Assembly: GCF_964213995.1 (NCBI RefSeq)
Contig: NC_135830.1
Span: 13,206,001 to 13,270,000 of the forward strand
Direction: 5' to 3'
Origin: Mustelus asterias
Lineage: Eukaryota
DNA length: 64,000 nucleotides
Of the stretch, positions 7,748 through 52,772 are shown one piece after another; the stretch's first letter is position 1, and each line of letters begins with the position of its first letter. Under the pieces are notes generated by a model, which saw nothing but the letters and a program-made list of their open reading frames with translations, was not told where the DNA came from and made no database searches. The translations under genes were made by a program, and so were the position numbers.

Positions 7748-8218
7748 TGGGGGTGAAACTCTGTCTCACTCTGGTTATTGTCCTGATTACAGGTGTGTCA
7801 TTTTGAACTTCTGCGTGAAATCTGCCAGTCACCACATTCATTCCCCATTTCCATCTGGAGGGGATTATTCCATTGTTGTTACTCCTTCTAACCCACTGCG
7901 TGTCTGTTACCTATTTTCAGACATGAGTAACGGTGACTCAGTGTCCCAGTCAGGACCAGGTGTTGAAGCAGCAGAGGGTGAAGATTCAGCAATACCCTGC
8001 AGTTACTCGGTACCGAGTACAGCTATACAACATTACTGTTCTGGTATCGCCAGTATACACACCGAGCTCCTCATTGACTGCTCAGAGCCGCGAATGTACG
8101 GGTCTCAAGGTTTTTTACATTGCAGCGGGAATCTCAACCTGAAACAAAGCACTTTTCACTTGCCCATGAAAGATTTGAAGGTGACAGACAACACCGAGAA
8201 TTACTGTGCACTGAGAGC
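7748..8218 (+). pseudogene. TCR alpha/delta-type V gene segment pseudogene (leader exon 7748-~7792, V exon 7921-8218)
   Basis: Leader MGVKLCLTLVIVLIT followed by a GT donor, acceptor TTTTCAG, then DSVSQ...C...YCALR; the FWYRQY motif is in a different frame and followed by TGA. Confidence 0.9.
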
Positions 8219-8257
8219 CACAGTGAATGAGGCTCCCGCGGGCCTCATACAAAATCT
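8219..8257 (+). other. Recombination signal sequence, 23-bp spacer
   Basis: CACAGTG (8219-8225), 23 nt, ACAAAATCT (8249-8257). Confidence 0.95.
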
Positions 8258-8789
8258 GGCACAGGTCGATAATCAATGATTCATTGTCAGGACAACACAT
8301 GGGGTTAAAAATCAGCGAAAATTTACTCATAGTTAACCTGACAATACAGTCCCGTCTAATTGTTTTCCCTCACTGAGGTTACTGATTGTCACTGTTGGGA
8401 AGTTTGACATGTTTTTACTCATATTACTATCACATCAAGTCCAATCGCTCCCCGATCCTTTCACACAAACCCACAGATCTCCCTGGTGAACCATGTCATC
8501 AGACAGACCACACCTTTCAAAAGTGATCAAGTTTCAAAGGCAGACTCAGAGTTGTCACATGTTGAAGTTGCTGGTTAAAATTATTGACTGTAACATGTGT
8601 ACTTTATAAACAAAAACCCCCAGTTGCAAACAGTCGAGGTAACAATATTGGACGGATATTTTGCTGGAATTTAAAGCCCACAAATGCTGATGCGGTAAGT
8701 TATTTAATCAATTTCGGCTTTCACTCGAGGTGTCAGAACTGCTTTGTAGAAAGTTAAACAATTTTTATTTTGCTAGCTACTAACGTGCA

Positions 8790-8879
8790 GGCTCGTTGGT
8801 CTAGGGGTATGATTCTCGCTTAGGGTACCTCGCCCCATTAGCATGCGAGAGGTCCCGGGTTCAAATCCCGGACGAGCCC
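8790..8879 (+). tRNA. tRNA-Pro(AGG) with 18-nt intron (8826-8843)
   Basis: Exons match the canonical vertebrate Pro-AGG sequence; insert TACCTCGCCCCATTAGCA lies between nt 37 and 38; TTTT terminator at 8882. Confidence 0.92.
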
Positions 8880-9017
8880 CGTTTTGACCGAAATATTGTG
8901 TTCGAAAGGAGATATTTTGATTTATTTCAGGTGCAAACGGCGGGATGGCTTTCTGCTGACTGGCTCCGAAAAAGAGTAATAAAGGCACAGAATTTTACAG
9001 CACGGATAGAGCCCACT

Positions 9018-9070
9018 GGGACACCCACATGGCAGGCGGGGACACCCACATGGCAGGCGCGGACACCCAT
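9018..9070. repeat. 21-bp tandem repeat, ~2.5 copies
   Basis: GGGACACCCACATGGCAGGCG repeated. Confidence 0.85.
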
Positions 9071-9209
9071 CATGTCTGCGCCTGCCACGTGACAGCTGGA
9101 CGGGAAGCGTTAGTTCTGATTCTCGCTCCACAGGTACTTCCAGAAATACTGACATAACCCAGTATTTTCAGTTTTTATTTCAGATTTTGAAAGTCCGCAG
9201 TGTGCTGCA

Positions 9210-9845
9210 TTATATTAGACTTTGGGCTGACAAGTGGCAAGTAACATTCGCGCCACACAAATGCCAGACAATGTCCATCACAAATAAGAGAAAATCTAAC
9301 CACCACCTCTTGACAGTCAATAGTTTTTCCATCACTGAATCCCCTACTGTTAACATCCATACGGTTACCATTGACCAGATACTCAATTGGACTCGCCACA
9401 TAAACACAATGGCTACAAGAGCAGGTCAGAGGCCAGGAATACTGCGGCGAAAAACTCACCTCCTGACTCCCCAGAGTCTGTCCACCATCTACAAGGCACA
9501 AGTCAGGAGCGTGATGGAATATTCCCACCTCGCCTGGATGGGTGCAGCTCCAACAACACACAAGAAGATTGACATTATCCAGGACAAAGCAGCCCGCTTG
9601 ACTGGCACCACATCCACAAGCATTCAATCCCACCACAGCCGATGCTCAGTAGCAGCGATGTGCATCTAAAAGACACACAGTAGCAATTCACCAAAGATCC
9701 TTAGACAGCACCTTCGAAATCCATGACCACTTCCATCCAGAAGGAAAAGGGTAGTAGACACATGGGAACATCACCACCTGCAAGTTCTCCTCCAAGTCAC
9801 TCACCATCCTGACTTGGAATTATATTGCCATTCCTTCGCATGGCC
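9210..9845 (+). mobile_element. CR1/L2-group LINE fragment (distinct, older family)
   Basis: ORF 9187-9669 WADKWQVTFAPHKCQ...IYKAQVRSVMEY, an RT C-terminus. Confidence 0.85.
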
Positions 9846-9929
9846 TCATTCTGTGGTGTACTCATTTTCTGATTTAGTGCGTACCTCACCCTGAGGCCGT
9901 GATCCGCAAAGTATTTTCTCATTTCTCAT

Positions 9930-10688
9930 TTCTGTCATCTCTCCCTCAATGTCAATAAAACGGAGATTGTCATTGACTTCAGAAAGCGTAGAGGAGAACA
10001 TGCCCCTGTCTCCATCAAAGGGAACGAAGTGGAATGGGTCGAGAGCTTCAGGTTTTTAGGTCTCCAGAGCACCAACAACCTGTCCTGGCCTCCCATGCCG
10101 ACACTATAGTGAAGAAAGCCCATCAACGCCTCTACTTTCTTAGAAGACTTAGGAAATTTGGCATGTCAGCAACGACTGTCAGCAAGGTTTGCAGGTGCAC
10201 CATAGAAAACATTATTTCTAGTTGTATCACAGCTTGATATGGCTCCTGCTCTGCCCAAGACCGCAATAAACTACAAAGGGTCGTGAATGTAGCCCAATCC
10301 ATCACTCAAACCAGCCTCCCATCCAGTGATTCTGTCTACGCTTCCTGCTGCCTCGGCAAAGCAGCCAGCATAGTTAAGGACCCCACGCACCCCGGACATT
10401 CTCTCTTCCATCTTCCTCCTTCGAGAGAAAGATACAGAAGTCTGAGGTCACGTGCTAGCCGACTGAAGAACAGCTTCTTCCCTGCAGCCATCATACTTTT
10501 GAATGGACATTACCTTGCATTAAGTTGATCTTTCTCTAGACCCTGACAGTGACTGTAATACCACATTCTGCACTGTCCCCTTTCCTTCTCTATGAACAGT
10601 ACACGTTGTCTGTATAGCGCGCAAGAAAAAATGCTTTTCACTGTATACTAATACATGTGACAATAATAAGTAAAACCAAGTCAAATCG
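9930..10688 (+). mobile_element. Rex1/Babar-clade LINE 3' fragment
   Basis: KKAHQRLYFLRRLRKF, DPTHPGHSLF, RLKNSFFP motifs; stop and frameshift. Confidence 0.85.
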
Positions 10689-10950
10689 TTTCATTTCTCC
10701 TGACTTCCAGACTATTCCTGTTGTTAAATTTCCTCCCTCCTGAGTTTCAGTCGTTTCAAATTCCCACATTTTTCACCTTTTCCTGTTGTAATGAAAGGCC
10801 ATGGACGGAAAAGATGAGCGTTGTTTCCCTGTCCACAAATTCTGCCTGAATTCCTAAGTTTCTGCAGCATCTTCCGCCTTCGCTGCAGTTATCTGATCGG
10901 TTTTGACTGACCAAGAGAGCATCTTTTCTTTCAATCAGTGGCTGCTTATA

Positions 10951-11031
10951 GGCTCCTTGGTGTAGGGGTATGAATCGCATTTTGGTATGCCTTAACCACC
11001 GAGATCCCGAGTTGAAATCCGAGACTAGCCC
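10951..11031 (+). pseudogene. tRNA-Pro pseudogene, 9 nt longer than normal in the anticodon region
   Basis: GGCTCCTTGGTGTAGGGGTATGA...GATCCCGAGTTGAAATCCGAGACTAGCCC. Confidence 0.75.
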
Positions 11032-11380
11032 TACTGTTTCTTCTTATCCCTGTTACATCAAAACATCGAAACCAGGAGTAGGTCATTGGAACATCATCTC
11101 CCATTCATTGTTGTCATGCCTGATAATCAAATTCAATACCCTGATCCACCATTTAGCCCCAAGAGCTATATTAAACTTCTCTTGAAATCATAGTGTTTGG
11201 CCTCAACTACTTTCTGTGGGAGTGAACTCTGCAAATTCACCACTCTCTGGCTGAAGGAAGTCTCATCATCTCAGCCGTTATCCTCAAACTATTATCCCGA
11301 GTTCTGGACTCCCCACTAACGAGAACATTCTTTCTGAATCTACCCTGTTTCATCCGGTCAGAATGTTATAAGGTTCCATT

Positions 11381-11698
11381 AGAATCATAGAATCCCTGCA
11401 GTACAGAACGAGGCCAATTCGGCCCATCAAGTCTGTACGGACAACAATCCCATCCAGGCCCCACTCCTGTAACTCCATGCATTCACCCTGCTACTCCCCC
11501 TGACACGAGGGCCAATTTAACACGGCCAATCAACATTAGCCGCACATCTTTGAACAATGGGAGGAAAGCGGAACACCCGGAGGAAACCCATGCAGATACG
11601 GGGAGAATGTGCAAACTCCACACACACAGTGACCCGATGCCAGATTTGACCTCGGACTCTGGCGTTTTGACGCAGCAGTGCTAACCAATGTGCCACCC
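11381..11698 (-). mobile_element. HE1-type SINE, near full length
   Basis: tRNA-like head (gcagcagtgctaacca), V-domain-like core, catagaatc tail. Confidence 0.9.
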
Positions 11699-11784
11699 AA
11701 AACATATCTGCCCAGAAATAGCCAGGATAAGTTGGCAAGAAATGCATTTGCCAATGTTGGACACCTAAGTGTTAAAATAAGCCG

Positions 11785-11858
11785 CATCCCAGAAGGGACG
11801 CGAACACACGCTCACTTGGTTTAGGAAGCCAGTGCCTTACGCATTAGGTCACTAGAGC
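11785..11858 (-). pseudogene. tRNA-Arg(CCT) pseudogene
   Basis: Reverse complement GCTCTAGTGACCTAATG..TAAGGCACTGGCTTCCTAAACCA...GTTCGCGTCCC. Confidence 0.75.
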
Positions 11859-12244
11859 TATAGGTGAACTACTGCTGCAGCTTGAAGAAGCTGTATATCT
11901 CCATCCACATAGACAGTGACTAACCCCAGAATCGAAACCAGGTCCCTGGTATTGTGAGCCAGCAGAACTAACCACTGTGCCGCTCTCTCCCACGAAGATT
12001 TTATCAGATTTCATGAGCTGCAGATTTTGTTTCTTTCTTTGCATTGCTGACTTTGGGATTGGTTCACATGGGGTTTCGTTTGAGAATCTGAGCACAAACT
12101 GTGAGAAATATATCAACACAACACAATCGCTCGAAAATAAAGATATGATCAACAGGGTTGGCTATGTAACTTGACGTTCATTTTATCTCCATTCACCTCG
12201 TCAGCTGGCCCCATGATTATGGGTTCAGTGAGCTGCCTTGATGT

Positions 12245-12460
12245 TTCTTTTTGTTCGTGTGGGTGTCGCTGGCAAGATCAGCATGCGCTGCCCATCAGTA
12301 TTTACCCTTGAGAAAGTAGTGGTGAGCTGCATTCTTGAAACGTTGCATCCATTTGTACAGGTACACTTACAGTGCTGTTAGGGAGGGAATTCCACGAATT
12401 TGTCCCAATGACAGTGAAGGAACGGCGATATATTTCCAAATCAGAATACTGAGGGACTTG
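12245..12460 (-). mobile_element. 3' UTR of the LINE family seen at 9.2-9.8 kb
   Basis: gaaggaacggcgatatatttccaa is the reverse complement of the 9815-9840 segment. Confidence 0.7.
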
Positions 12461-12649
12461 AGGGTGGTGTTGGCTGTGTGGCTTTGGAGGGGGGGGAGGG
12501 CGTGGGGGGGGGGGTGGGGGGGCGGTCGGAGGGGGGGTGGGGGGTGGGGCGGGGTGGTGGTGGCGGGAGCTGCCGGGTGGAAGCGGTCATGGGTTTGGAA
12601 GATGCTGTCTAAAGTGCCTTTGGTGGATTTCTGCATCATGCAGACAAGT

Positions 12650-14383
12650 GGAGAGAGACTAAATGATTTTCTTTTGCATCCGTATTTACGGAAGAAACGG
12701 GCATGGAGTCTACGGAAATAGGGCAAACAGGTAGGGAGGTCATGGAACCTTTCCAGATTAAAGGGGAAGAGGTGCTCGCTGTCTTGAGGCAAATCAGAGT
12801 GGATAAATCCCCAGGACCAGACAGGGCATTCCCACGGACCTTGAGGGAAGCTAATGTTGAACTTGCAGGGGTCCTGGCAGACATATTTAAAATGTCAGTA
12901 TTCACGGGGGAGGTGCCGGATGATTGGAGGGTGGCTCATGTTGTTCCGTTGTTTAGAAAAGGTTCCAAAAGGAATCCTGGAAATTATAGGCCAGGAAGTT
13001 TGACATCGGTGGTGGGCAGGTTATTGGAAGGTGTGATAAGGGATAGGATCTACAAATATTTGGATAGACAGGGACTTATTAGGGAGAGTCAACATGGCTT
13101 TGTGCGTGGTAGGTCATGTTTGACCAATCTATTAGAGTTTTTCGAGGAGGTTACCAGGAAAGTGGATGAAGGGAAGGCGGTGGATGTTGTCTACCTGGAT
13201 TTCAGCAAGGCCTTTGACAAGGTCCCGCATCGGAGGTTCGTTAGGAATGTTCAGTCGCTAGGTATACATGGGGAGGTAGTAAATTGGATTAGACACTGGC
13301 TCAATTGAAGAAGCCAGAGAGTGGTTGTGGAGGACTGCTTCTCTGAGTGGAGGCCTGTGACTAGTGGTGTGCCGCGGGGATCGGTGTTGGGTCCATTGTT
13401 GTTTGTCATCTATATGAATGATCTGGATGATAATGTGGTAAATTGGATCAGCAAATTTGCTGATGATACAAAGATTGGAGGTGTAGTGGACAGTGAGGAA
13501 GGTTTTCAAAGCCTGCAGAGGGATTTGGACCAACTAGAAAAATGGGCTGAAAAATGGCAAATGGAATTTAACGCAGACAAGTGTGAGATATTGCACATTG
13601 GAAGACAAGCCAAAGTAGAACGTACAGGGTAAATGGTGGGACTCTGAAGAGTGCAGTTGAACAGAGGGATCTGGGAATACAGGTACAGAATTCCCTAAAA
13701 GTGACGTCACAGGTGGGTAGGGTCGTAAAGAGTGCCTTTGGTACATTGGCCTTTTTAAATCGGAGTATCGAGTATAAAAGTTGGAGTGTTATGGTAAGGT
13801 TATATAAGGCATTGGTGAGGCCGAATTTGGAGTATTGTGTACAGTTTTGGTCACCTAGTTACAGGAAGGATGTAAATAAGGTTGAAAGAGTGCAGAGAAG
13901 GTTCACAAGGATGTTGCCGGGACTTGAGAAGCTGAGTTATAGAGAGAGATTGAATAGGTTGGGACTTTATTCCCTGGAGCGTAGAAGATTGAGGGGAGAT
14001 TTGATAGAGGTGTATAAGATTTTGGTGGGTATAGATAGAGTGAATGCAAGCAGGCTTTTTCCGCTGAGGCTGGGGAGAAAACAACCAGAGGGCATGGGTA
14101 AGGGTGAAAGGAGAAAAGTTTAAAGGGAATATTAGGGTGGGCTTCTTCGCGCAGAGAGTGGTGGGAGTGTGGAATGAGCTGCCGGATAAAGTGGTAAATG
14201 CGGGGTCACTTTTAACATTTAAGAAAAACTTGGACGGGTTCATGGATGAGAGGGTGTGGAGGGATATGGTCCAAGTGCAGGTCAGTGGGACTAGGCAAAA
14301 AATGGTTCGGCACAGACAAGAAGGGCCAAAAGGCCTGTTTCTGAACTGTAAGTTTCTGTGGTTTTCTATGGTTTTCTATGGTT
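12650..14383 (+). mobile_element. 5'-truncated CR1 LINE, disrupted RT
   Basis: ORFs with DKSPGPD, NYRP, QHGF, YLDFSKAFD, GVPRGSVLGP, FADD; (TTCTATGGT)n tail. Confidence 0.96.
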
Positions 14384-14441
14384 CAGACTCACTCTGGTCA
14401 CAATGTTTGCCTAACGCTCTGCTATTTTGTGAGGCTCTGAC

Positions 14442-14480
14442 AGTTTTTGTACAGGTTCAGCCCAGTTCTGTTTCTCTGTG
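14442..14480 (-). other. Recombination signal sequence, 23-bp spacer
   Basis: CACAGAG (14480-14474), 23 nt, ACAAAAACT (14450-14442). Confidence 0.93.
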
Positions 14481-14784
14481 GGTCTCAATGCGCAATAACA
14501 CACGCCAGAGTCTGCCAGCTCCGTTTTAGACACTTTCAGCGGGACGGTGCGGGTTGTGCAATTGAGCTCCGCTAAAAAACGGTCCTCTGGGAATCTCTCT
14601 GTGTTCTCGCTAACTCTATGTCTCGTCAGCAGGAACTCCATGGTCCCGCTGGGATACTGACGGTACCAGAATAAGTAAGGGGTGTTGCTTGTAGCTGTAT
14701 AATCACAGAGCAACTGAACATCATCTCCTTCAGTGACGGTGACTGCAGCCGCTGTTTGTGAAACAGAATCTCCTCCACGGTGTC
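14481..14784 (-). CDS. TCR alpha/delta-type V exon, reading frame intact
   Basis: After acceptor TTCCAG: HRGGDSVSQTAAAVTVTEGDDVQLLCDYTATSNTPYLFWYRQYPSGTMEFLL...RF...LKVSKTELADSGVCYCALR; both Ig cysteines and the conserved Trp are present. Confidence 0.9.
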
Positions 14785-14891
14785 CTGGAAGAACGCAAAG
14801 AAATATTGAACTAAATGCGGCTTCGCATTAAACATCACATACCCCCCTTCCCCCCAACACCTCCCTCTCCCCCCCCCCCCCGGCCACTCCC

Positions 14892-14954
14892 CAGAATCTG
14901 CTGTCATCTTGAACAATAATCTCAGAGATAAATCACACAGCAGAACAGAAGCAT
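14892..14954 (-). pseudogene. Probable damaged leader exon of the minus-strand V
   Basis: ATG-MLLFCCVIYL-TGA; the candidate donor reads GGGAGT instead of GTGAGT. Confidence 0.5.
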
Positions 14955-15283
14955 ATATTTTTCACAGTTCAGTGGCTGGAAAGGGAAGGTGCTTGTGGCG
15001 ATTAAATAACATTTACACTATAAACACCGTACGTTCTAACGAGATCAGTTCAATGTCTTCAGTTCATGTAACTGGAAACTGCTCACGGACTGTCTGTTTG
15101 AAGTTTGATGTTTGCCAAAGTTATTCGCTGATATCAGAGGAGCTTGAATCCCAGCCCAAACTATTCTCCCTCGTTCCCTCGGGGAAATGTGACTAATCCC
15201 AACAGTGTTCAGCGTTGAGGCCAGCGAAAACGGGATAACGTTTCCATGTTGAGATCAATAAATTCCCTGATCATCTACCCCTA

Positions 15284-15371
15284 CCCATAGAACCATACAA
15301 CCATAGAAAATTACAGCTCAGAAACAGGCCTTTTGGCCCTTCTTGTCTGTGCCGAACCATTTTATGCCTAT
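15284..15371 (-). mobile_element. CR1 3' tail only, same subfamily as 12650-14383
   Basis: Reverse complement of 14292-14383 (ggttcggcacagacaagaagggccaaaaggcctgtttctg). Confidence 0.9.
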
Positions 15372-16375
15372 ATTGAGCGAACCGCTCAACCTATGTTGAG
15401 GCTCTATGTCTTCTTGGAGGAGATCTCCAAAACATCCAATTATCCCCGTAGCTCCGTGAAATCTCTATTTAACTAACGTTGCTCTCAAGAGTACAGTCCG
15501 GTCTCTACAACCTCACCACAAAACTGAATTTCCTCATCTCTGGACATGATGCAAGGCGGATGATTGAGCAGAGATTTTGGAAAATATTGTCAGTTGGCAG
15601 TTGGGGAAAATGGAGAAGGAAGCAAACAAGAAAACACTGTCTCCAGCTTTGCGAATATTTAGAAACTCTTTGGGAACCGGAACCAGAGGAGATTGAAGGG
15701 TGAACTGTCTGACAGTTGTGGGAGAGTTGGTTCCCGGTGACATGGATGTGTCTGCAATGGATGGGCTCTGACTGTTAGACTTAACTAACCCATTAGAAAT
15801 CCATTCAATTATTCCATTCTCTCAAACTCATTAATTATTCTCTCTTTCTCCGTTACACGGTGAGTGAGACAGGGAAAAGCAGCAATCTTCCAGCCCCCAC
15901 TCTCCAAACATCCCCTGCCAGCAAAAAGGACTGACGACTTAGCTGTGTCTGTTTTCTATGAAATGGTGAAGAGTAAATATTAAATATTTCGATTGATACC
16001 CAATTGAGTTCACATTTCACAATAAACTTCAATTCGGAAACTTCAGAGCAGTGAGTTTTGACAACATTTCTGCCCCGTTTAGCGCCTGGGACCTGCGCAA
16101 ATATGAATAGAATGTGATTATCCCTTCAATACACAAAGTCCGCTCAGGATAAAAGCGACTTGATGGTCAAACTGTACAGTCTGAGTTAACTTTATAACCT
16201 GATTTGTGGAAGTACAATTCGGCTAAAAACCATTTTTCATGCGGCAGAGAAATTCATCTAACATTAGAATCAGTAAATGACATTTGTGCCATTTCTTTTC
16301 TCTTTTACCATGTCTGGGTGGCCGGGGGTGGGGGGGGGAGGTGGCGGTAGGGGGGGTGTGGGGGAGGTAGGGTGG

Positions 16376-16645
16376 TTGCACTGTGGCACAGTAGTTAACA
16401 CTGCCATCTCACAGTGCTAAAGATCGATTCCCGGTTTGGGTCTCTGTCTATTTGACGTTTGCACTTTCTCCCCGTGTTTGCATGAGTTTCCTTTGGATCC
16501 TCCGGTTTCTTCTCACAGCCGGAAAGACGCGCTGGTTCGGTGCATTGACCCGAACAGCCGTCGGAGTTTGGCGACCAGAGAATTTGACAGTGTCTTCGTT
16601 ACAGTGTTAATGTAAGCCTTACATGTGACTAATAAATAAACTTTA
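16376..16645 (+). mobile_element. tRNA-SINE with 'B' tail
   Basis: gtggcacagtagttaacactg head; gtgttaatgtaagccttacatgtgactaataaataaac tail. Confidence 0.85.
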
Positions 16646-17204
16646 TTTTAACTGAGCATTTTGCAGAATAACGTTTCACACTTGGGAAGTGCAACTGCAG
16701 TTAGGCTGAGAGATAATGTTTTCTTTCAATATTTAACAACAAAAGAAAATGAGGTAACTTTTCCTCACACTGAGAGATGAGTTAGTTCGTTTCCTATTTC
16801 ACACAGGAAACCTTTCATATGTTAAGTGAATGTATAAAACACCACACTTCAGAAACTCTGAAGTACAATCAAATTGCACGGTTCGACACCCCAGTCTGTT
16901 GCAGAGTTGGAGAGCATCGTTTCTGTCTGTAATAATTATCACATTCATCTAAACACACGAAAGATTCCCGATTCGAAAACGGGAGGAAACATTTTTAGAT
17001 ACGTTTCACCTCGGAGTGAGGAAAATAGAAATAATTCACGTTTATTGCTGAATATTAGCTGAATACAGTAACTTACACGATGTTACATTTCGCCTTCCCC
17101 TCCACATTTCTGTACACACTCAAACCCGACAGAATATCTTTAACTGGCTCCCGTTTCCAGCTCTGTCAGTTCAGAAAGCTTCTCTCAAACTTGCACATTC
17201 GGGC

Positions 17205-17435
17205 TTTTCTTTCGGTCATTTGTGAAACACTGGCGTCGCTGGCCAGCATTTAATGCCCATCCCGAGTTGAGTTGCAAGCATATTGCTGTGGCTCTGGAGT
17301 CACAAGTAGGCCAGATAATAACAGCAGATTTCCTTCCTAAAATACATGAGTGAAGCATATGGCTTCCTCCAACAGTCGGAAATTGTTTCATGGTCATCAA
17401 TGCGAGGTTTTATTTATTGAATTCAAATTCCACTA
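17205..17435 (-). mobile_element. Second SINE family fragment sharing its tail with the 12.3-kb LINE
   Basis: gtcgctggc...tgcccatc tail shared with 12265-12297. Confidence 0.6.
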
Positions 17436-17499
17436 CCGACCGTAACCGTCCCCAAAATGGTAGCTGGTCAAGCGATAGTAGCACCAACACCATCTCACG

Positions 17500-17594
17500 T
17501 GCTCTAGGTGAGGCTCGAACTCACAACCTCGGCATGGCCCACGGGCTGTACTGCTGTATAAGTACCGCGCGCTAACCGATTGCGCCACTGGAGC
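17500..17594 (-). tRNA. tRNA-Ile(TAT) with 21-nt intron (17536-17556)
   Basis: GCTCCAGTGGCGCAATCGGTTAGCGCGCGGTACTTATA-intron-ATGCCGAGGTTGTGAGTTCGAGCCTCACCTAGAGCA; one C5:A68 acceptor mismatch. Confidence 0.9.
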
Positions 17595-18537
17595 ACGGCT
17601 TTGGGCTGATTTTTGTCAGATTATTAAAGACTTTTACAGCGTCACCTCCGTTAACAACAGTCATTCGAGGCAACATCGACGGGGAACAAACGCATCAATG
17701 ATTCTCTCTTCACCAGCTCCACAGTAAGTGAGACAGGGACAAGCAGCAGCATTTTACCCCGCATTCTCCAATCATCCATCCGCTGCCAGCAGAAAAGCGG
17801 CGACTGCCGCTTCAATTAGTGGGTTACCGCCCATCCCTGGGACACAAGATTCAACCCCGTTCAAAACTCGCAATACACCTAACACAAGTTCAGCAAAACG
17901 TTTACGGATTATATCCCGCGCACTGAACCTTCGAGTATCATTTAAACAGTATCTGAGTGAGTCACAAACAATATTCAAACCAACTTTCCAAAACGTTTCA
18001 GTAGTAGATTCCTCCATTTGATTGAAAAGCTGAGCGCTGTGAATCTGGAAATGAACACCATGGGGTTTATGTTACCCAGTGACTATGAGTCCGTCAGGTT
18101 TCCAATTCCATTTGAGTTGTATATTGAAGCGAATCTCATTTCAAAATGAGGAGAAAACAAGGAAAATATTAACTCTTGGAACAAATCCTGAGGAAAATGG
18201 GTCACAATATTTGGATACAGGTACAGCTGTGAATGGTGTTATTGATGATTGAGTGGAAACTATTGGATCCTTGGGCTTCTGGTGGTCAGTTCCCTTCCCT
18301 CCCTTTGAATTGCTCCCTGTGATAAGAGACATGGATTCATTTTACCTACACGTTCATAGGAAAATGAGAATAACCAACACACTACAGAAATGCTGCGGGA
18401 TCAACGTAACCAAAGATACTTGGATAGAATTCGAAACGGTGCGGTCATGCTGCAGTTCTGGAACAGGTTTTGCAGAAAGAGAATTGTGGTTATTGACACC
18501 CTAGCTTAGAATATCGTCAGCAGCAGCTGCTGCCTTA

Positions 18538-27278: not shown

Positions 27279-27282
<4 letters not shown>

Positions 27283-42319: not shown

Positions 42320-43045
42320 CATAGAACAAAGGAAGGAACAAAGAAAATTACAGCACAGGAACAGGCCCTCCAAGCTGCCCAACTTAACTAAAGCGCCTCA
42401 CTCTTCCGGGGACAATATCGCTCTATTCCCATTCCATTCATGTATTTGTCAAGAGGCCCCTTAAAAGCCACTGCCGTATCCGCTTCTACTACCTCCCCCA
42501 GCAGTGAGTTCCAGGCACCCACCATACTCTGTGTGAAAAATCTGCCTCGTACATCTCCTTTAAATCTTGCCCCTCGCCCCTTAAACCTGTGCCACCGAGT
42601 AATTGACTCTTCCACCCTGGGAAAAAGCTTCTGACTATCCACTCTGTCCATGCCTCTCGTAATCTTATAGACTTCTAACAGCTCGCCACTCATCCTTCAT
42701 CGCTCCAATGAGAAAAAATCAAATTTCTCCCACTTCTCTTCATAGCTAATGCCCTCCATACCAGGCAACATCCTGGTAAATCTTTTCTGTACCCTCGCCA
42801 AAGCCTCCACATCCTTCTGGTAGTGTGGTGACCGGAATTGAACACTACATTCCAAGTGCGGCCTAACTAAGGTTATATAAAGCTGCAACATGTCTTGCCA
42901 ATTTCTCAACTCAATGTCCCGGCCAATGAAGGCAAGCATGCCGTATGCCTTCTTGACTACCTTCTCCACTTTCAGTGACCTGAGCACTTGTACACCCAGA
43001 TCTGTTTGCCTATCAATACTCTTCCGGGTTCTGCCAATTACTGTA
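42320..43045 (-). mobile_element. CR1 LINE 3' fragment
   Basis: ORFs 42388-42693 and 42697-42987; same subfamily as 1082-1854. Confidence 0.95.
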
Positions 43046-43309
43046 TCATGCTGGAAATTCCATGGGAGTTTTGGAATGATTTACTAACCACGTCTTTGCA
43101 TTGTTAGCAAATTGTACCAAATGCTTTGCCGAATGCTCGAATTGTCTAAAGGAAGAGAACAATATTACTATTCTGAAAACCCTGCCTTCAAATCGTATTT
43201 GCTGAATTATAATTGGACATAAACGTTCCATTGGAAAACCTTATCAGCATAATATTAGAGGCATAAATAATCAACTTACATTTTCCAAGTGTAAAGTCAT
43301 CAGGAGTCT

Positions 43310-44660
43310 GTGTTGGGATGGGGCGGCGGTGGAGGGTTCGGGTTGGGTGGATGGTAAAGAGTGGGATGTTGGAGTGGATGGTGGAGGTTTGTTGTTGATT
43401 AGAATGATGGGAGTTTGGGGAAGGAGTTGTCTGAATGGAGATGGAGTGGATGGTGGGAGGGGCGGTGTTGAGTGGGATGGTGGGGGTTTGTGGGAGGAGT
43501 TGGAAATTATGGTGAATGTTGGGGAATTGGGGCGGATAGTGGAGGTATGATTTGGGTTGAACGGTGGGTGATTCCGGGAGATGAGAAGGTGGATAGTGAA
43601 GGGTGGGAAGACGGAATGCATGGTGGGACTTGCGGGGTTGTCTTGGATGGTGGGAGTTTCGTGGAGGAGTTGGAGTGGATCGTGATGGATGGAGAGTTCG
43701 ATTGAATGATGGGAGTTGTGGGGTTGAGTTGGATGGTGGGGGTTTGCGGGAGGAGTTGGGATGGATGGTGAAGTGTGGGGATGTGGAGTAAATGTTGGGA
43801 GGTGTGGGGTCCGGTTGGATGTTGGGAGTTTGGGGGATGAGTTGGGGTGGATGGTGAATTGTGGGGAATTGGAGTGGATGGTGTGCGGTTGGTTTGGGTG
43901 GTACTAGTTTGGTGACGGGTTCTGGGAGATGGTTGAAGGTGTGGGGTTAGGTTGGATGATAGGGGGTTGGTGGAGGAGTTGGGGTGGATGGTGTATGGTG
44001 AGGATTTGGAGTGCATGGTGGAAGGTGTGGGGTTGTGTTTGATGGTGGGAGTTTGGTGTAAGTGTTGGTGTGGATGGTGAAGAGTGTGGAGTTGGAGTGG
44101 ATGGCATGAGGTGTGCGTTGGGTTGGATTGTGGCTTTTGAGTGGAGGGGTTGAGGTGGATAGTGAAGGGTAGAGAGGTGGACTGGGTAGTGTGGAGGGTG
44201 TGGAGTGGAGTGCAAGGTTGGATTTGTGCGATTGGGTTGGATGATGGCTGTTGAGTGGTGGAGTTAGGGCTGATAGAGAAGGGTGGGGAGTTGGAGTGGA
44301 TGGTGGGAGGCCGTGGGATTGCATTGGATGTTGGGAGTTTGGGGGATGAGTTGGGGTGGGTGGTGAAGGGTGGGGAGTTGGGGTCGATGGAGGAGGGCGT
44401 GGATTTGGCATGAATGGTGGATGGTGTCTGGATGGGTTGGCTGGTAGGAGTTTTTGGCAGGAGTTGGGGTGGATGGTGAAGGGTGGGGAGTTCGAGTGGA
44501 TGGTAGGAGGTGTGAGGTTGGGTTTGATGGTCGGAGTTTAGGGGATGAGTTGGGGTGCATGGTGAATAGCGAAGATTTTGTGTGGATGTTTGGGGGGTGT
44601 GGTATTGTTTGGATGGTAGTTGTTTGGGGGAGGAGTTGGGCTGGATGATGAAGCGTTGAT
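43310..44660. repeat. Strand-biased G/T-rich degenerate tandem repeat
   Basis: Recurrent GGAGTTGGRGTGGATGGTG; very few C on the plus strand. Confidence 0.9.
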
Positions 44661-44959
44661 GGGACTGAGGTCAAAACAGAGTTCTCTTTCTTTTGGAGCA
44701 TGGGGGTGGGTTGGAGCTGAAGTAAAATGCTGCATCCTGTGTCCCCCTCCCAAACGAAGAGGAGAATCGATTCGAGAAATCAATGCGTCCAGTCCGTGCT
44801 GAATGCGAGGATCAACCTGACTGAAATCTAGATTAAAATGTTTGGACTTCTTTTTCAAATTTTAAATCCGTCTCCATCACTTATTCTGGTTGATGAATGG
44901 AAATGTGACCTCACTGTGAGATGGTTTTATTCAGGTAAGCGAGCTATAATGACTGACTA

Positions 44960-45867
44960 TCAGATCACTGTTTTAATGAACTGCACAATTCCAGTAAATG
45001 GTAGTTTCACCACATTCTTCAGATCCTCTCTGAATTGTGCCTGGGTCACAGCATAAATGCATGTGTTGGTGCAGCAACTCAGGAGTTGCAGCATAAATCC
45101 CAGTTCCTGCACAAATTCGGGCAAAATTGTACTAATTACTCTGATACGCTCCAATCGGCTACAAAACGAATAGATGAGGAACACTGACCATAACAAGATG
45201 AAATTTCCCGATATTGCAAACAGTAAGATAATGGATTTCCTTCTCTTTTCTATCTCTGGGTCACTTTCACTTCCCCCACTCTTGTGGCTCCGAAGTCTCC
45301 TGCGGACTTTGCTGGACACTAAAATGTGTTTAACGGTTATAACATTGAGCAGCAGAATCAACAAGAAAGGAACAAATGGATTTAAAATATAGTGTACAAT
45401 TTCAACTGCTGCCCACACTCCTGATTCTGTAACAGCATAATGTACATAACAAAACCAAGGATTATTTCCGAAAGAATATTTATCGCCACACATGAAGTAC
45501 CAGAAAGTATTCTTTACAGTGAACACCACACTCACTGTTCCGAGAACCACAGCTGCCGTTTTCTCGGTGCAGTGTTTTATTTTCAGTTTCTGACAAGTAA
45601 TGGCGACGAAACGATCAAAGGTGAAAGCGACAGTGAACCAGACAGAACAATCAGTGACTGCGTAAAGCAGGACAGCATGGATATTACACACTCTCATGTG
45701 AGCCATGAACCGAAATTGATGAAAAAAACGGATAGTAATTTGTCTCAATATGAGATCAATGATAACGACCAGTAGATCTGCCGCTGACATCGAAATTAGG
45801 TAACGTGTGACACATTTGGAAAGCCCACACCTTCCTCGTGATAGGATAAGAATCGTCAGTAAGTTCA
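44960..45867 (-). CDS. GPR139-like class A GPCR, coding exon 2
   Basis: VNLLTILILSR, ADLLV, SVWFTVAFTFDRFVAI, ECL2 Cys, NTCIY; acceptor CCTTACAG; TGA at 44960. Confidence 0.93.
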
Positions 45868-46494
45868 CTGTAAGGAAGAGAGGCACAATTAATTCATATT
45901 TCAGACTGAGATCAGGGGCAGCGATCTTTCAGGGTCCTGTGGAACATTTGCAGCTTTCTTTTATAGTCCAACCTCAGAATAGAATGACTTCACCTGTAAC
46001 CTTTCTTTCACCTGGAGAAAGAGGTTAAAGGAATAAAACACCGCATTAATGTAGCAAGAAATACAATTATCCAACAGATGTAATCTATTTGCTGCCTTGT
46101 GCAGGATTTCCCTTTGGGAGACATAATATTTTTGGCTGAAATGCAACACAAACGTGTTTCTGGTGCTAGACACTGCTGTGTCTGTGCTAAAATCTGTCCA
46201 TTTGTACATCTTGGATAAGTTGCTTTGGACTTGCTTGTGAATCGCGAAGCTGGTCTTTTTTTAGCTGATGTTAAGCTACTTTGTCACTTCGACGGGAAGT
46301 GTCAAAGTGACAGTCGGGAATGGAGGATGCGGGGAGTACCTGGCTGCTTGATGTCTGGAGAAGAGCGGGTGGCTCTTTGGGGCAGGTGCGGAGGGCGGGG
46401 GTCGGAGGTTGCTGGAGCAGCTAACGGTGCTTTCAAAGTGGGCGGATTTCATGCCGGAGCTGCAATCGAGCTGACTATTCTTGCGAGTTTATCC

Positions 46495-46565
46495 ATGTGT
46501 GTGTGTGTGTATTTGTGTGTGTGTGTGTGCGCGCGCGCGCGTGCGTCCGTGTGTGCCTGTGTGTA
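46495..46565. repeat. (GT)n(GC)n microsatellite
   Basis: Direct reading. Confidence 0.9.
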
Positions 46566-46567
46566 TG

Positions 46568-48595
46568 TCATAGAGTAATAGAGTCAAAGTGGTTTGCAGC
46601 ACGGCCATTGGGCCGAATTTGTCCACGCTGCCCTGTTTTTACCATTAACCTGGTACCAACTATCCCTCGACACCACTCTGACCCATGTAGCTTTCTAAAT
46701 GGTTTTTCAAAGACAACGTTGTACCCGCCTCTACTACTACCTCTGGCAGTTTATTCCAGGCACTCACCGCCCTCTCTGAGAAAAATCGATCCTCTGGACC
46801 CTTTTGTTTCTCTCCCCGCTCATCTTAATCTTATGCCCTCTTCTTTCAGACTCCCCTACATTTGGGAACATATGTTCACTATCGACACCATCTATGCCCC
46901 TCATTATTTTAGAGACTTCTGTTAGATCACCCCTGGGCGGCACAATGGCACGGTGATTGGCATTGCTGCCTCATAGCGCCATGGACCTGGGTTTGATTCC
47001 CAGCTTGTGTCACTGCCTGTGTGGAGTTTGCACATTCTCCCCGTGCCTGTGTGTGTTTCCTCTGGGTGCTCAGGTTTCCTCACACAGTTCAAAGATGTGC
47101 AGGTTAGGTTGATTGGACATAGTAAATTGCCACGTAGCGTCAGGGGGGCGAGCATGGTAAATGCTGAGTGTCACGGGAATAGGGGCTGGGTAAGATTGTG
47201 TTCGGTACAGACTCGATGGGCAAAATGGCCTCCTCCTGCACTGTAGGGATTCTATGATATAAGCCTCCTCTGATCCAGGGAAGAAATGTCGCAGCCTATC
47301 CAGCCTCTGGTAATAACTCAAACCATCAAGTCCCGGTAGCAACAGACTATATTTTCTTTGCATTCTTTCCAGCTTAATAATTTTTTTTCGTATAATAGGG
47401 TGACTCCAATTGGACATCATATTACATTTGTGGCGTTGCCAATATTTCGTGCAACTTCAATGAGACGTCCCAACTTCTGCATTCAATTTTCTGACCAACG
47501 AAACCAAGAATGCCGAATGCCTTATTCATCACTCTGTCCACCTGTGACTCCACTTTCAAGGAGATATATAGCATGAGATATATTTGTTCTATGACTCTCT
47601 CAACGCCCTACAATTTACTGAATATATGCTGCACAGGTTCGATCTACGAAAATGCATCACCTCACATTTATCTAAATTTAACTCAATCTGCCATTCATCA
47701 TCCCATTGGTCCAACTGTTCAAGAGCACGTGGCAATCATAAATAACTTAAATTGTCAACTGTACTACCAATTTTGCTGTCTGCTGCAAACGTACTAAATT
47801 CTCATCCAATTCATTAATATAAATGACATACGCCAGTGGACCCAGCATAGATCCGTGAGGCACAGCGTTGGTCACAGGCGTCCAGTTTGAAAAACAATCT
47901 TGTACAACCACCCTCTGCCTTCTGTCTTCAAGTTAGTTTTGTATCCAATTGGCTACCTCACCCTGCATCCATTGAGATGAAACTTTATGCACCAACCTAT
48001 CATGCGGTACCCTGCCAATTGCCTTGTTAAAATCCAAATAGACATCATCGACTGCACTGCCCTCCTTCTCGATAATATGTGCACTCCTCAAGACATCGAT
48101 ATTTATTTCCCCAAGTTCCCTAACAGCCATGCCTTTCTCAGTAGCAAATACTGATGAGAAATATTCATTTAGGATCTCAGCCATCTCTTGTGGCTCCACA
48201 CATAGATGACCTTGTTGATTCTTAAGGGGCCCTATTTTCTCCCCAGTCACTCTTTTGCACTTTGTGTGTTTGTAGAAGCTCTATGCATTTCCTTGACGTT
48301 ATCTGCCAAAGCAATTTCGTGTCCCATTTTTGTTCTCCTGATTTATCGCTTAACTTTACCCCAACACCCTCTATACAATTCAAGGGATCCAGTTGATCCC
48401 AGTTGCCTATGCTTTTTGCTTCTTGACCAGGGCCTCAACATCCCAAGTCATCCAGGGTTCCCTATTTCTACCAGCCTTGCTCTTCACCCTGAAAGGAATG
48501 TGCTTACCCTGAACCTTTGTTAACACACTGTTTAAAGACTTCCACTTACCAGACGTCAATTTGCTTGCCAATAGACTCCCCCAATTTAGAGATTG
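46568..48595 (-). mobile_element. Old, fragmented CR1 LINE in the GPCR intron
   Basis: Minus-strand ORF pieces IGPLKNQQGHLCVEP, VYLDFNKA, LERMQRK. Confidence 0.85.
46935..47258 (+). mobile_element. HE1-type SINE nested in CR1
   Basis: gggcggcac head, gtagggattctatga tail. Confidence 0.9.
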
Positions 48596-48859
48596 ATAGT
48601 GCATTTGTGGGAGACATTGTGCGTGAACGCGAGAGTATGTGCCAGATTGTTTTTAAGAATTGTGCGTGTGCGAGGGATTGTTTGTGAGAGAGAGTGATTG
48701 CGTGGGAGAGATATATACGTATCATGTTAGAGGAATAGAGTGGGGTTGTGTATGAGAGAGAGTTGTTGTGTGTATTTTGGTGGTGGGAAGTGATTTCACT
48801 TCCAGCATCAGATTTCATACAGCCTCACTGCCACGCACCAATACGCCCACATTTCAGTG

Positions 48860-49040
48860 TTTCCTCCCACAATCCGAAAGACATGTTGATTAGGTGCATT
48901 GGCCATGCTAAATTCTCCCTCAGTGTACACAAACAGGCGCCGGAATGTGGTGACTCGGGGACTTTCACAGTAACTTCATTGTAATGTTAACATCAGTCTA
49001 CTTGTGACACTAATAAATAAACTTAAAACTTAAATAAACT
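48860..49040 (+). mobile_element. SINE 3' part with 'B' tail
   Basis: tttcacagtaacttcattg...cttgtgacactaataaataaacttaaa. Confidence 0.85.
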
Positions 49041-50674
49041 ATTCCTCCTGAGACCTGAGCCATCATAGCGAACATTGTACAGCTAACCCATTTCCCTTCG
49101 GATGATGCTTCGACGAATTTGAACGAATTGGGAACAGGAAAAGTTGTTGACCCTGGCAATTGGCCAGTGTGAGAGCTGTCGACCTGCACAGCAGATCAAG
49201 TCACTCCTTAAGGCTACCTGCTAAGTTGCTGTGAAATAAAAGTGATGAAACCTCATACATAAAGTCAACCATCAACATGTATTAAGGATAAATGGAAAGT
49301 TGAATCCGTGGGACATTGAGAGAAGCCGATATTACATCTCAAATATTATACAGCCGTTAGAAGCTAATGCAAAGATAGAACTTTTGCATTAAAGAACGAC
49401 ACAGAAATGGCGTTACCAACGATCATTAAATAAAACAGTATGATATTTCACAGACTTATAATACCGATTCAAAACTGTCTCCATTGAAACAGCACTCGCA
49501 GATAGTTCCATAATAAATTCACCCTGAGAGGACATGGCGGAAATGATATTTTGATTCATTGTTTAGCACTGGGATGTTACATTTGATAAGAACATTACTT
49601 TGATTCTCAGAGTTTACAGACATCACTTTTTGGAACATCATAATCATAACGGGACATCTAAATGCATTATCCAATCAGCAGTAGGATATCTATTGAACCC
49701 CTGATGCCCTGTGAACTCATGGGTACATCAGACCGATTATATCGTATAACACAATGGATTGTTTACAGGCCTAGTAACAGTTCAAATTTTGATCACTACT
49801 TCTAATCCACAGCTAATGTGGAATCACAATACATCACAACAGCCATAAATGCGGGATCAGAATAATACAATCGATCAGATTCCATATTCGCTTTTCATTG
49901 TCCTGACATGTTACATTGTTCACTTAAGCTCTTCCAGTCCCTTTATTGCTCCATAGTCGGTAGGCAATACAAGCCGAAACCATCGCCTGGTGAGTTGCTG
50001 CATTAACACAGTCCTCCCGTTAGTCACTTATGCCTTCGACCTGAGTAATCACATTCCTCTCTGCTCCCAAATAAGTGTGGAATTAACAGATAGTCAAACC
50101 ATATATTGTTAAAAATATATTTCTGAGCTATTTAAAGTATTGCTGGCATGGCAGAGAAACAACAGATAATTGGAAATATAAATTCAACTCGTTCTTTCTC
50201 AACTGGACATTTAAAATAATATGAATCGGGTAATCAAGGTGAGTCAGAAAATTGCCAGGCGATTTTCACATGCAGTGTGAATGGTGAGAAGCGAATAGGC
50301 CTGAAGCTTAACCCAGACTTCAATAATTCACAAATCAAATTATGAATTTAGCAACTCGTTTTTGAGAGGTAGCAACACAATGAAGGCCCGCATTGATGTT
50401 GTTGTCATGGGAACAGCCTAGAAGAAGGATAACCCAGACTCAAAACGTTTCCTCTATTCTTTCTCAACAGATGCTGGCAGACCAGACCAGTTAAATTGGT
50501 CCATCATTTCTTGCTTTCCTCCAGACTTCAATATCTTTAATCCCGGAAAAGCAACTGAAATAATCATCCCGAACAATGGTGACGATATCAAGAAAACTGA
50601 CTGCATGCATGAAGATGGATCCAAATATTAATTGGACTGCCACTTTTGCATAAACCGTTGAAACAGCGCTAAAT

Positions 50675-51143
50675 AAGAAGTGCAGAGGAGATTTACGAGA
50701 ATGCTGACTGGTTTGGAGGGTAGGTCTTATGAGGAAAGGTTGAGGGAGCTAGGGCTGTTCTCTCTGGAGCGGAGGAGGCTGAGGGGAGACTTAATAGAGG
50801 TTTATAAAATAATGAAGGGGATAGATAGAGTGAACGTTCAAAGACTATTTCCTCGGGTGGATGGAGCTATTACAAGGGGGCATAACTATAGGGTTCGTGG
50901 TGGGAGATACAGGAAGGATATCAGAGGTAGGTTCTTTACGCAGAGAGTGGTTGGGGTGTGGAATGGACTGCCTGCAGTGATAGTGGAGTCAGACACTTTA
51001 GGAACATTTAAGCGGTTATTGGATAGGCACATGGAGCACACCAGGATGATAGGGAGTGGGATAGCTTGATCTTGGTTTCAGATAAAGCTCGGCACAACAT
51101 CGTGGGCCGAAGGGCCTGTTCTGTGCTGTACTGTACTGTTCTA
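50675..51143 (+). mobile_element. CR1 LINE 3' end
   Basis: ORF 50680-51069; same subfamily as 30042-31425. Confidence 0.95.
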
Positions 51144-51469
51144 TAAATTCACCCTGAGAGGACATAACTTGAATGATATTTTGATTCATTGTTTCGCACT
51201 GGGATGGTACATTTGATAAGAACATTACTTTGATTCTCAGAGTTTACAGACATCACTTGTTGGAACGTCATCATCATACCGGGACATCTAAATGCATTAT
51301 CCAATCAGCTGTAGAATATCTATTGAATGCCTGATGCCCTGTGAACTCATGGGTACATCAGACCGGTTATCTCATATTATCCCTGCTCGAAATCAAGTTA
51401 TAAAAAGAACAAGGAACAAAATGTCTCTTCGTTTGTAGGATATGATTTGTCCTCACCTCATTGAGTCTT

Positions 51470-51730
51470 TAGATGTATGGACTGCTCAACACTCGCAGAA
51501 GTAGTGTGCTGTTCCAGTCCATCTTTACTATGACTGATAGAGCACAACACGAATTGGCCAAATGGTTTTGCGAGGAGCTCCAAACAGATCTGAGCAAGTT
51601 TACCACAAACACACTGAAGGATCCATCAACATTTCCAACATCTCACAGCACCTGCATATCGATAGCAATTCTGTGTTCATGCATCGATCAATATGGTCAG
51701 CTTGTTCACAAATGTACCACTCAAGGGAGT
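51470..51730 (+). mobile_element. Penelope-like RT fragment
   Basis: YGL...AQHELAKW...LKD and VSLFTNVPL motifs. Confidence 0.7.
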
Positions 51731-52578
51731 CAAAAACTTTTGCTGACATGGTGGTCTAATGAATCTTCATTAATTGAAATTAAGAATGTAGCAAATCGTT
51801 TGTGTGAGGTAGGGACACAATTGAGGCCTGAATAGATGGTGTTGCCAAGGATCATTCCAGGCTCAGCTCCTGCAAAAATCTTTATCAGTTTAAATCTCCA
51901 CCCATCAGAGTCTACTTGCCAACCAATCAACTCTATCTTCTCAAATAACCTGAAATATTGTTCTCGTGTAAGAGTTGGTCATTTCTTTAAAGGTCTCTTC
52001 CAATGCGTAAGTCTAAAAAAAAGGTAAAACGTTTCCTTTTCAGCAATAATCGGGAAATGAAATAATAATTTCACTGGAACAGTGTTTTAGTTCCAGTTCT
52101 ATCCTGCTACATAGATTCCATAATGAGGAAGCAGAGCAGGAAAATGTGAAGTGCATTGGAAATTGCTGCATATATCTGAGTTTAATTGCGGTATATCTGC
52201 CAGCGCTACTTTTCACGGATCAGCAACATTAACAACATACAGCAAGGTTCAAAAGCCTCTTACTATACATTTTCCTGGTTCCTACTGTGATTCAGTCTGG
52301 AAAGCAATCTGCGTCTTCCCATGAAAGGGAACTGAAGGTTGAATATATTTTCAATGATTATCTCCACATTTATTCAAATCTAAAGCAAAATAACTGCAGC
52401 CATGTATGTTGGCTGTTTCAAACTATTTGTGGAGCTGCGACCATTGAGCCTGCTAGAGATCAAATATTATATGAACTGCTCCCAGGGCATTAGCAGATAC
52501 AGGCTATTAAGGTTACACAGAATGCTGTCCATAACTGCATTTCATGGACCGGGTGATAAATGCAGTGAAATAACTCAC

Positions 52579-52675
52579 CAGTGACACCAACGGCAGCGAG
52601 GAGTGGATAGTAAATTTTTTGGATATCGTAAAGTACCCATTGAATACGAAGATCAAGTGGAATAATCCATAACAT
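52579..52675 (-). CDS. GPR139-like GPCR, coding exon 1
   Basis: accATG MLWIIPLDLRIQWVLYDIQKIYYPLLAAVGVT-G|GTGAGT; the phase-1 join to exon 2 (G+TG=Val) gives 334 aa. Confidence 0.9.
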
Positions 52676-52764
52676 GGTGAGAGTGCCTTTGAGATTCAAT
52701 GATCACTCTTTCTACTGGTAACTGCGCTCACTGAAATATTACAACACACGATGAAATCATTCCC

Positions 52765-52772
52765 TATTTATA
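52765..52772 (-). promoter_or_regulatory. TATA box of the GPR139-like gene
   Basis: TATAAATA ~90 nt upstream of the ATG on the minus strand. Confidence 0.55.

What the first reader, a model, noticed from the sequence alone, without database searches (positions are those of the whole stretch)
7748..52772. TCR V segments, a tRNA cluster and a GPR139-like receptor are interleaved: a possible shark counterpart of the OR/tRNA/TRAV neighbourhood
Seen: two 23-RSS V segments sit among about 25 tRNA genes and pseudogenes, 30 kb from an intact divergent class A GPCR, with no D, J or C segment in the window. Established: olfactory receptor genes flank and intermingle with the distal mammalian TRAV genes, and tRNA genes and ORs cluster in the extended MHC. 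Inference: a GPR139-like family may fill the position ORs hold in mammals, pointing to an old antigen-receptor/tRNA/GPCR gene neighbourhood. Pol III genes could act as insulators or accessibility elements for the V segments.
Basis: partly seen in the sequence, partly recalled or inferred. Interest (0 to 1): 0.72.

Follow-up and report, generated by a model that had tools for sequence, protein, structure and literature searches.

The report
Multiplied shark T-cell receptor delta loci
This stretch is a copied block of two broken T-cell receptor gene pieces, mostly decayed tRNA genes and one intact orphan receptor inside a shark's antibody and T-cell receptor region, and that region holds 19 assembled T-cell receptor delta units (likely nine or more real loci) where one is the rule.

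Summary
In detail: two 23-RSS TCR alpha/delta V segments, 22 tRNA-like elements and an intact two-exon GPR139-like gene; no D, J or C. The interpretation mostly fails. Both Vs are broken; only 4 tRNAs keep both promoter boxes, and they diverge from duplicates as fast as their flanks (3.6% each). The trio recurs because one 30-45 kb block was duplicated. Vs beside the TCR-delta units have no tRNAs, and the receptor is no olfactory receptor. The Vs are not orphons: they lie in the known shark antigen-receptor complex, 61 kb from a complete IgM cluster.

Following the linkage gave the surprise: G000 holds 19 TCR-delta constant exons, all open (18 distinct sequences), in D-J-C units, 3 of them on the window's contig. 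There are two TCR-alpha loci, neither preceded by delta. Six of 18 delta units carry a joined V-D; three share one in-frame join, so it is probably germline. This cluster-type TCR delta resembles marsupial TCR mu; four paper searches found no shark case. Earlier scan notes saw the scattered Vs, the receptor family and joined NAR-TCR cassettes on other DNA, not the multiplied delta.

The parts
7747..7792 (+). V1 leader exon, intact, GT donor
   Evidence: sequence
7921..8218 (+). V1, TCR alpha/delta V pseudogene: 1-, 7- and 4-nt deletions against the C436 paralogue put the conserved Trp out of frame; first Tyr of YYC changed
   Evidence: no Pfam hit
8219..8257 (+). 23-RSS of V1
8790..8880 (+). 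tRNA-Pro(AGG) with an 18-nt insert at the canonical intron site; A box, B box, T-run
10951..16992 (.). decayed tRNA copies (Pro 10951, Arg about 11782 by eye, Val 16067, 16793, 16919)
14442..14480 (-). 23-RSS of V2
14481..14784 (-). V2, open TCR alpha/delta V exon; the leader region seen in three paralogous stretches is missing here
17499..17594 (-). tRNA-Ile(TAT) with intron; A and B box
18538..18611 (+). tRNA-Asn copy with ATT anticodon, B box changed
22121..22192 (+). tRNA-Glu(CTC); A and B box
24141..28507 (.). tRNA-like run: decayed Val, Lys, Glu and four Gln copies around tRNA-Gln(CTG) 26950-27021 (A and B box, 64.6 bits)
38052..40744 (.). six decayed tRNA copies (Asn, Val, Cys, three Glu)
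44960..45867 (-). GPR139-like class A GPCR, coding exon 2
52579..52675 (-). GPR139-like GPCR, coding exon 1 (N-terminus and first half of TM1; phase-1 intron)
7524..50492 (.). extent of the block that is collinear with its duplicate at G000:C71:5.50-5.55 Mb (C143 covers 7776-44971)

Best explanation
The window is one copy of a duplicated V-tRNA-receptor block inside a shark antigen-receptor complex, and the same, likely segmental, duplication has multiplied the TCR-delta D-J-C unit itself into probably nine or more loci. Shown: the block recurs collinearly; its two Vs are broken; its tRNA copies diverge like their flanks; the assembly has 19 open delta constant exons and two alpha loci without a delta in front. 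Inferred: unequal crossing-over in LINE-rich DNA copies whatever lies in the region (Vs, IgM clusters, tRNA arrays, receptors, zinc fingers), so tRNAs and receptor ride as passengers. Inferred: each delta unit can rearrange with nearby Vs like an antibody minicluster, and germ-line RAG activity has pre-joined V to D in some units, leaving one somatic join to J.
For: Block: collinear at C71:5.50-5.55 Mb (24,058 window bases, 90.9%) and C143 (20,503 bases, 91.1%); partial at C71:17.79, 13.75 and 4.79 Mb (5 of 5 chosen sites). 14 of 22 receptor copies at 92% or more have a V hit within 45 kb. tRNA divergence from three duplicates: four best 26/714 (3.6%), decayed 101/3111 (3.2%), flanks 1200/33103 (3.6%). 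Complex: complete IgM cluster at C71:13.137-13.153 Mb; 25 of 150 listed V hits lie on C71, 4.7-19.4 Mb, both strands, as in Table S1 of PMC12227049. Delta: 19 constant exons at 82-100%, all open; 18 distinct at 99.9%, 12 at 99.5%, 8 groups at 99%; hinge 19 of 19, TM open in 15 of 15 fetched; D 23-RSS found in 18 of 19, J array in the units read; fits the trd motif, not the tra motif, of PMC10322711. Alpha: two constant exons, 74% identical. Run X4 holds both delta types and both alpha types, with delta contigs at depth 120+48 and 179 against alpha 17-20.
Against: 16 of 19 delta copies lie on unplaced contigs; some are probably alleles (C850 equals C71:12.27 Mb over 1.8 kb, but differs by one TM residue). 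Depth is not copy number by the tool's own warning; X4 may be the assembly's source; run X1 shows only about twofold (10.7-14.5 vs 6.25). Delta exons show little purifying selection (pN 0.026, pS 0.032). No expression was shown for any copy. Two joins (C401, C850) are unique and 99.9% like an unjoined unit downstream, so they could be somatic. The receptor shows mild constraint (pN/pS 0.53-0.70), so it is not simply dead freight. Density controls are small (10-20 tiles of 10 kb), and the tRNA library came partly from C71.
Confidence: 0.72

Rival explanations
1. One reading: an old antigen-receptor/tRNA/GPCR neighbourhood matching the mammalian OR/TRAV one, with Pol III genes insulating or opening the V segments.
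For: C71 tiles hold 13 tRNA-like elements per 100 kb against 0 on ten large-chromosome tiles. ORs do sit among distal TRAV genes in human, mouse and sheep (PMC4574546). Four tRNAs keep A and B boxes. Receptor-family hits also flank likely MHC proteasome genes on C8.
Against: No OR family match; two coding exons. Both Vs broken. No excess conservation of tRNAs. 0 tRNA-like elements in 312 kb around six delta units, which include V arrays; 2 in 150 kb of the alpha locus; 2 in 100 kb chosen near other receptor copies. Enrichment is patchy: 5 of 20 C71 tiles.
Confidence: 0.1
2. The many delta units are mostly assembly artefacts (unpurged haplotypes, or somatic rearrangements from lymphocyte DNA); the true state is one to three loci.
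For: 16 of 19 copies are on small unplaced contigs; several pairs are 99.5-100% identical; C401's join lies 872 bases from its contig start; X1 depth ratio is about two.
Against: A diploid gives two alleles per locus, yet there are 18 distinct sequences and 8 groups at 99%. Three different units lie megabases apart on C71 itself. One join is shared by three copies 98.2-98.4% alike. Both delta types occur in run X4.
Confidence: 0.15
3. The receptor subclade has lived in the antigen-receptor complex since early sharks (conserved linkage, perhaps immune expression), without any OR homology; recent duplication only amplified it. Compatible with the best explanation on the delta units.
For: The window's receptor groups with Heptranchias, Pristiophorus and Heterodontus genes (99/99 support, 32 rows). 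Copies at 73-76% identity lie 4-14 kb from V hits on six contigs (C90, C106, C119, C315, C386, C842). pN/pS is below 1.
Against: Positions of the orthologues in other sharks are unknown; the tree held only 24 of 120 listed relatives and no true GPR139; the family has 5,873 first-look candidates across many contigs, so residence here is unremarkable.
Confidence: 0.35

Closest known systems
Elasmobranch antigen-receptor complex (AgRC; PMC12227049, read: parts 1-2 of 8, passages, Table S1)
   Same: IgM miniclusters, TCR alpha/delta Vs and NAR-TCR cassettes interspersed over many megabases in both orientations.
   Different: The paper calls TCR alpha/delta a translocon and its table names at most one delta constant per species; here 19 delta and 2 alpha constant exons, delta not in front of the alpha J array. 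Its main text has 0 hits for tRNA, GPCR or GPR139.
Marsupial/monotreme TCR mu clusters (PMC7615758, passages)
   Same: A delta-derived locus repeated as clusters, each with its own constant gene; germline-joined V; two-V chains (NAR-TCR cassettes sit upstream of several units).
   Different: Here the constant gene is still delta, the units are dispersed among IgM clusters and V fields, and the join is V-D with several free Js rather than a complete V-J.
Shark Ig miniclusters with germline VD-J joins (PMC6795676, passages)
   Same: Repeated cassettes, some partly rearranged in the germline.
   Different: T-cell receptor, with four to five Js per unit and shared V fields.
Mammalian OR genes among distal TRAV genes (PMC4574546, passages)
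   Same: A class A GPCR multigene family interleaved with V segments.
   Different: Unrelated receptor family, two coding exons, spread through the V field rather than at its distal end.
Chondrichthyan 'probable GPR139' family (database label)
   Same: 2,186 relatives at E<=0.001; best 62-73% identical in Heptranchias, Heterodontus, Pristiophorus.
   Different: Only weakly like human GPR139 (E 2.8e-7, no better than muscarinic M4); ligand and tissue unknown.

Membership tests
Functional TCR alpha/delta V gene (V1) | Leader, open V-set exon with Cys-Trp-Cys, 23-RSS | tested here: not met
   Leader and RSS present; frameshifts remove the in-frame Trp
Functional TCR alpha/delta V gene (V2) | Open V-set exon and 23-RSS | tested here: met
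Functional TCR alpha/delta V gene (V2) | Leader exon upstream | tested here: not met
   Leader region of a paralogue matches C143 and C71:17.8 Mb but not the window; no ATG-to-donor leader in 3.2 kb upstream
AgRC (PMC12227049) | IgH clusters linked to TCR alpha/delta | tested here: met
   IgM at C71:13.14 Mb, alpha at 18.4 Mb, delta at 7.1, 11.0, 12.3 Mb
AgRC (PMC12227049) | PSMB5 and UrIg2 linkage | tested here: inconclusive
   A PSMB5-like gene (by exon pattern, recalled) lies on unplaced C185 with C1-set exons; UrIg2 not searched
TCR delta locus (19 units) | D with 12- and 23-RSS, 12-RSS Js, C1 exon with CLxxxFxP, hinge, TM with Arg and Lys | tested here: met
Canonical TRA/TRD locus | 5'-TRDC-(TRAJ)n-TRAC-3' order | tested here: not met
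   No delta constant in 64 kb upstream of the C71 alpha J array, none on C546
TCR delta locus (19 units) | Somatic rearrangement and expression of each unit | not testable with these tools
   No run on record as RNA was listed
Olfactory receptors | OR Pfam family; single coding exon (recalled) | tested here: not met
   7tm_1 only at E<=10; two exons
GPR139/GPR142 orthologue | Phylogenetic grouping with true GPR139/142 | not tested
   No true GPR139 in the tree; weak full-length match; TM1 intron agrees with GPR139 only by recall
Functional tRNA genes / Pol III insulators | A and B box, conservation, TFIIIC binding | tested here: inconclusive
   4 of 23 have both boxes; no excess conservation; binding not testable

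The most novel reading that the evidence does not exclude
This shark has turned TCR delta into a multi-cluster system like its antibody genes: nine or more working D-J-C units of two constant-region types (82-83% identical), uncoupled from two separate TCR alpha loci, some inheriting a ready-made V-D join. It would be a fish counterpart of marsupial TCR mu, and alpha rearrangement would no longer delete delta.
Probability: 0.45. Interest if true: 0.8.

Novelty: new variant of a known kind. Interest (0 to 1): 0.6.

Why it matters
[quoted passage not shown] Many delta cassettes outside the alpha locus would bear on how the translocon/cluster split arose, how one T cell settles on one delta chain, and how alpha-beta versus gamma-delta choice works when alpha joining cannot delete delta. 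The V/tRNA/receptor trio itself is a warning that co-occurrence inside a duplicating region is one event counted many times.

Tried and rejected
Lowering ARAGORN's threshold gave mostly noise. Protein search with V2 found nothing. Pfam PF09291 (TCR alpha constant) found nothing in G000; a strict RSS-plus-J pattern gave 0. I first read the multi-copy constant exon as alpha; the D segments and the second constant exon corrected this. The element near 52,650 is not an RNA gene but receptor exon 1. A first density count included SINE heads; three library entries were dropped and the count redone. TM exons were printed in wrong frames and correctly. No RNA holder listed for the delta exon. The 8 database gene models of the delta units (labelled Mustelus asterias, named 'alpha chain-like' or 'uncharacterized') probably rest on the same sequence and are not independent; one hit each in Heptranchias and Rhincodon comes from a weak search and does not show single copy there. 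Paper searches for the receptor family or the trio and for multiple shark delta loci listed nothing describing them; two key NAR-TCR papers are not held, the PDF supplement of PMC12227049 was not read, and the bioRxiv supplements on tRNA loci could not be seen.

Full report
Observation. The window is G000:C71:13,206,001-13,270,000 on a 20.4-Mb contig. It holds two V segments with 23-RSS; V2 matches V-set and TCR alpha chains. V1 has 1-, 7- and 4-nt deletions against a paralogue, which restore an open frame but lose the conserved Trp. V2 lacks the leader region found in paralogous stretches. There are 22 tRNA-like elements in the stated span and none in 5 shuffles; 4 of 23 examined keep both promoter boxes. 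The receptor is an intact two-exon, 334-aa class A GPCR of a family labelled 'probable GPR139' in several sharks and a ray, with 5,873 first-look candidates in G000, of which 124 were scored.

Where it lies. A complete IgM cluster (VH, two D, JH, four C exons) lies 53-69 kb left of the window. V hits run from 4.7 to 19.4 Mb of C71 on both strands (25 of 150 listed); 19 of 150 listed C1-set hits are on C71. This is the antigen-receptor complex of PMC12227049, which reports TCR-type Vs between IgH clusters and does not mention tRNA or GPCR genes in its main text. So the Vs are not orphons. Abundant, clustered and intron-bearing tRNA loci in sharks are reported (bioRxiv 10.1101/2025.06.08.657570, passages).

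Why the three gene types co-occur. The V1-V2-tRNA-receptor order recurs collinearly at C71:5.50-5.55 Mb and on C143 at about 91% identity, and in part at three more C71 sites; I chose these five sites because they carry close receptor copies. Of 22 receptor copies at 92% or more, 14 have a V hit within 45 kb (7 of 9 on C71, where 9% is expected at random). That is one arrangement copied. Against three duplicates the four best tRNAs differ at 3.6% of sites, the decayed ones at 3.2% and the flanks at 3.6%. tRNA-like density per 100 kb is 45 in the window, 66 to its right, 13 across 20 even C71 tiles (5 positive), 0 in 10 large-chromosome tiles, 2 in 10 tiles near other receptor copies, 1.3 in the alpha locus and 0 around six delta units. 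C71 is enriched but patchy, and Vs do not need tRNA neighbours. The receptor has no OR match. It is under mild constraint (pN/pS 0.53-0.70; 1 of 4 paralogues has a stop) and groups with genes of three other sharks, so an old linkage to the complex remains open. DAD1 with exon structure is on C7; proteasome hits on C8 probably mark the MHC (inferred), and PMC10751288 has no hits for tRNA, GPR or olfactory.

What the Vs could join. A J pattern gave 217 hits against 4 for the control; 100 were listed. Thirty-two form an array at C71:18.374-18.417 Mb followed by an alpha constant exon; a second alpha constant, 74% identical, is on C546. Small J arrays at C71:7.12, 11.02 and 12.25 Mb and on other contigs precede a different constant exon, found 19 times among 116 candidates at 82-100%. 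It is delta: a D with 12- and 23-RSS precedes the Js, it fits the trd motif of PMC10322711, and hinge and TM exons follow. All 19 exons are open; 1.8-kb segments give 18 distinct sequences, 12 groups at 99.5% and 8 at 99%, so a diploid needs about nine loci if all are germline. No delta constant lies in the 64 kb before the C71 alpha J array or on C546. The nearest delta unit is 0.94 Mb left of the window; V2 would reach it by inversion and V1 the alpha array by deletion, were they intact (inferred from orientation).

Joins. The D site was found in 18 of 19 units: 12 keep a 12-RSS, 6 are fused to a V. C436, C119 and C96 share one in-frame join of an open V to D, with flanks 98.2-98.4% alike, so the join predates their duplication (inferred). 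The join at C71:11.02 Mb uses a broken V2-type V, and its downstream DNA is at most 97.2% like any other unit. Joins on C401 and C850 may be allelic or somatic.

Outside check. Run X4 holds both delta types and both alpha types; its delta contigs have depth 120+48 and 179 against 17-20 for alpha. Run X1 shows about twofold. Run X5 (another organism) shows one delta contig across the exon; X6's contig starts and ends near the exon edges. Depth is not copy number and X4 may be the assembly's source. Delta exons show pN 0.026 and pS 0.032, so function of each copy is unproven.

Verdict. The reported neighbourhood is real but is best read as duplicated freight in a known complex; alone it would score about 0.3. 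The multiplied, partly pre-joined delta units uncoupled from alpha are a new variant of TCR organisation, closest to TCR mu (PMC7615758) and unlike the translocon stated for sharks. Four searches found no report, but key subscription papers were not held. Earlier scan notes agree on scattered Vs, the receptor family and joined NAR-TCR cassettes; none listed or 102 describes multiple delta constants.

Noticed in passing
window 8790-8880; L041; L116: tRNA-Pro(AGG) with a 17-18-nt insert at the canonical intron site in three copies, each about 0.5 kb beyond the RSS end of a V1-type segment; the inserts differ while their ends are kept.
   Followed up: partly
G000:C546:138-240 kb: Second TCR alpha locus: J array begins at about 138 kb and a constant exon 74% identical to the C71 one lies at 240 kb; both types occur in run X4.
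   Followed up: partly
L078-L079 (C71:12.223-12.230 Mb); L082: NAR-TCR cassettes (NAR-type V, J, supporting V delta) directly upstream of delta units; at 12.23 Mb the supporting V is followed by three tandem 23-RSS copies 61 bases apart.
   Followed up: partly
L091, L093, L094, L097: Ig VH-like V segments lie 0.5-5.3 kb upstream of the delta D in four units (C90, C110, C111, C138).
   Followed up: no
L049-L050 (C71:13.356-13.370 Mb): Tandem array of 14 tRNA-Val genes at 1.2-1.5 kb spacing, 90 kb right of the window.
   Followed up: no
L160:6053-8431; L168:6938-9316: A second, 46%-identical two-exon receptor sits between the Vs and the main receptor in two block copies.
   Followed up: partly
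G000:C8:39.5-44.4 Mb: Receptor-family members flank proteasome genes at 41.3-41.7 Mb that may be the MHC PSMB8/9; two tiles there held no tRNA-like element.
   Followed up: partly
L051:2004-2873: C2H2 zinc-finger gene about 32 kb upstream of the alpha J array, where the delta constant gene normally lies.
   Followed up: no
window 19504-21549, 56863-58752, 29254-32977, 32900-36700, 43200-44700: Long open LINE reverse-transcriptase frames, a split BED-finger (hAT-like, recalled) transposase, a 59-bp minisatellite and an 86-bp G-rich repeat beside the receptor's 3' end.
   Followed up: no
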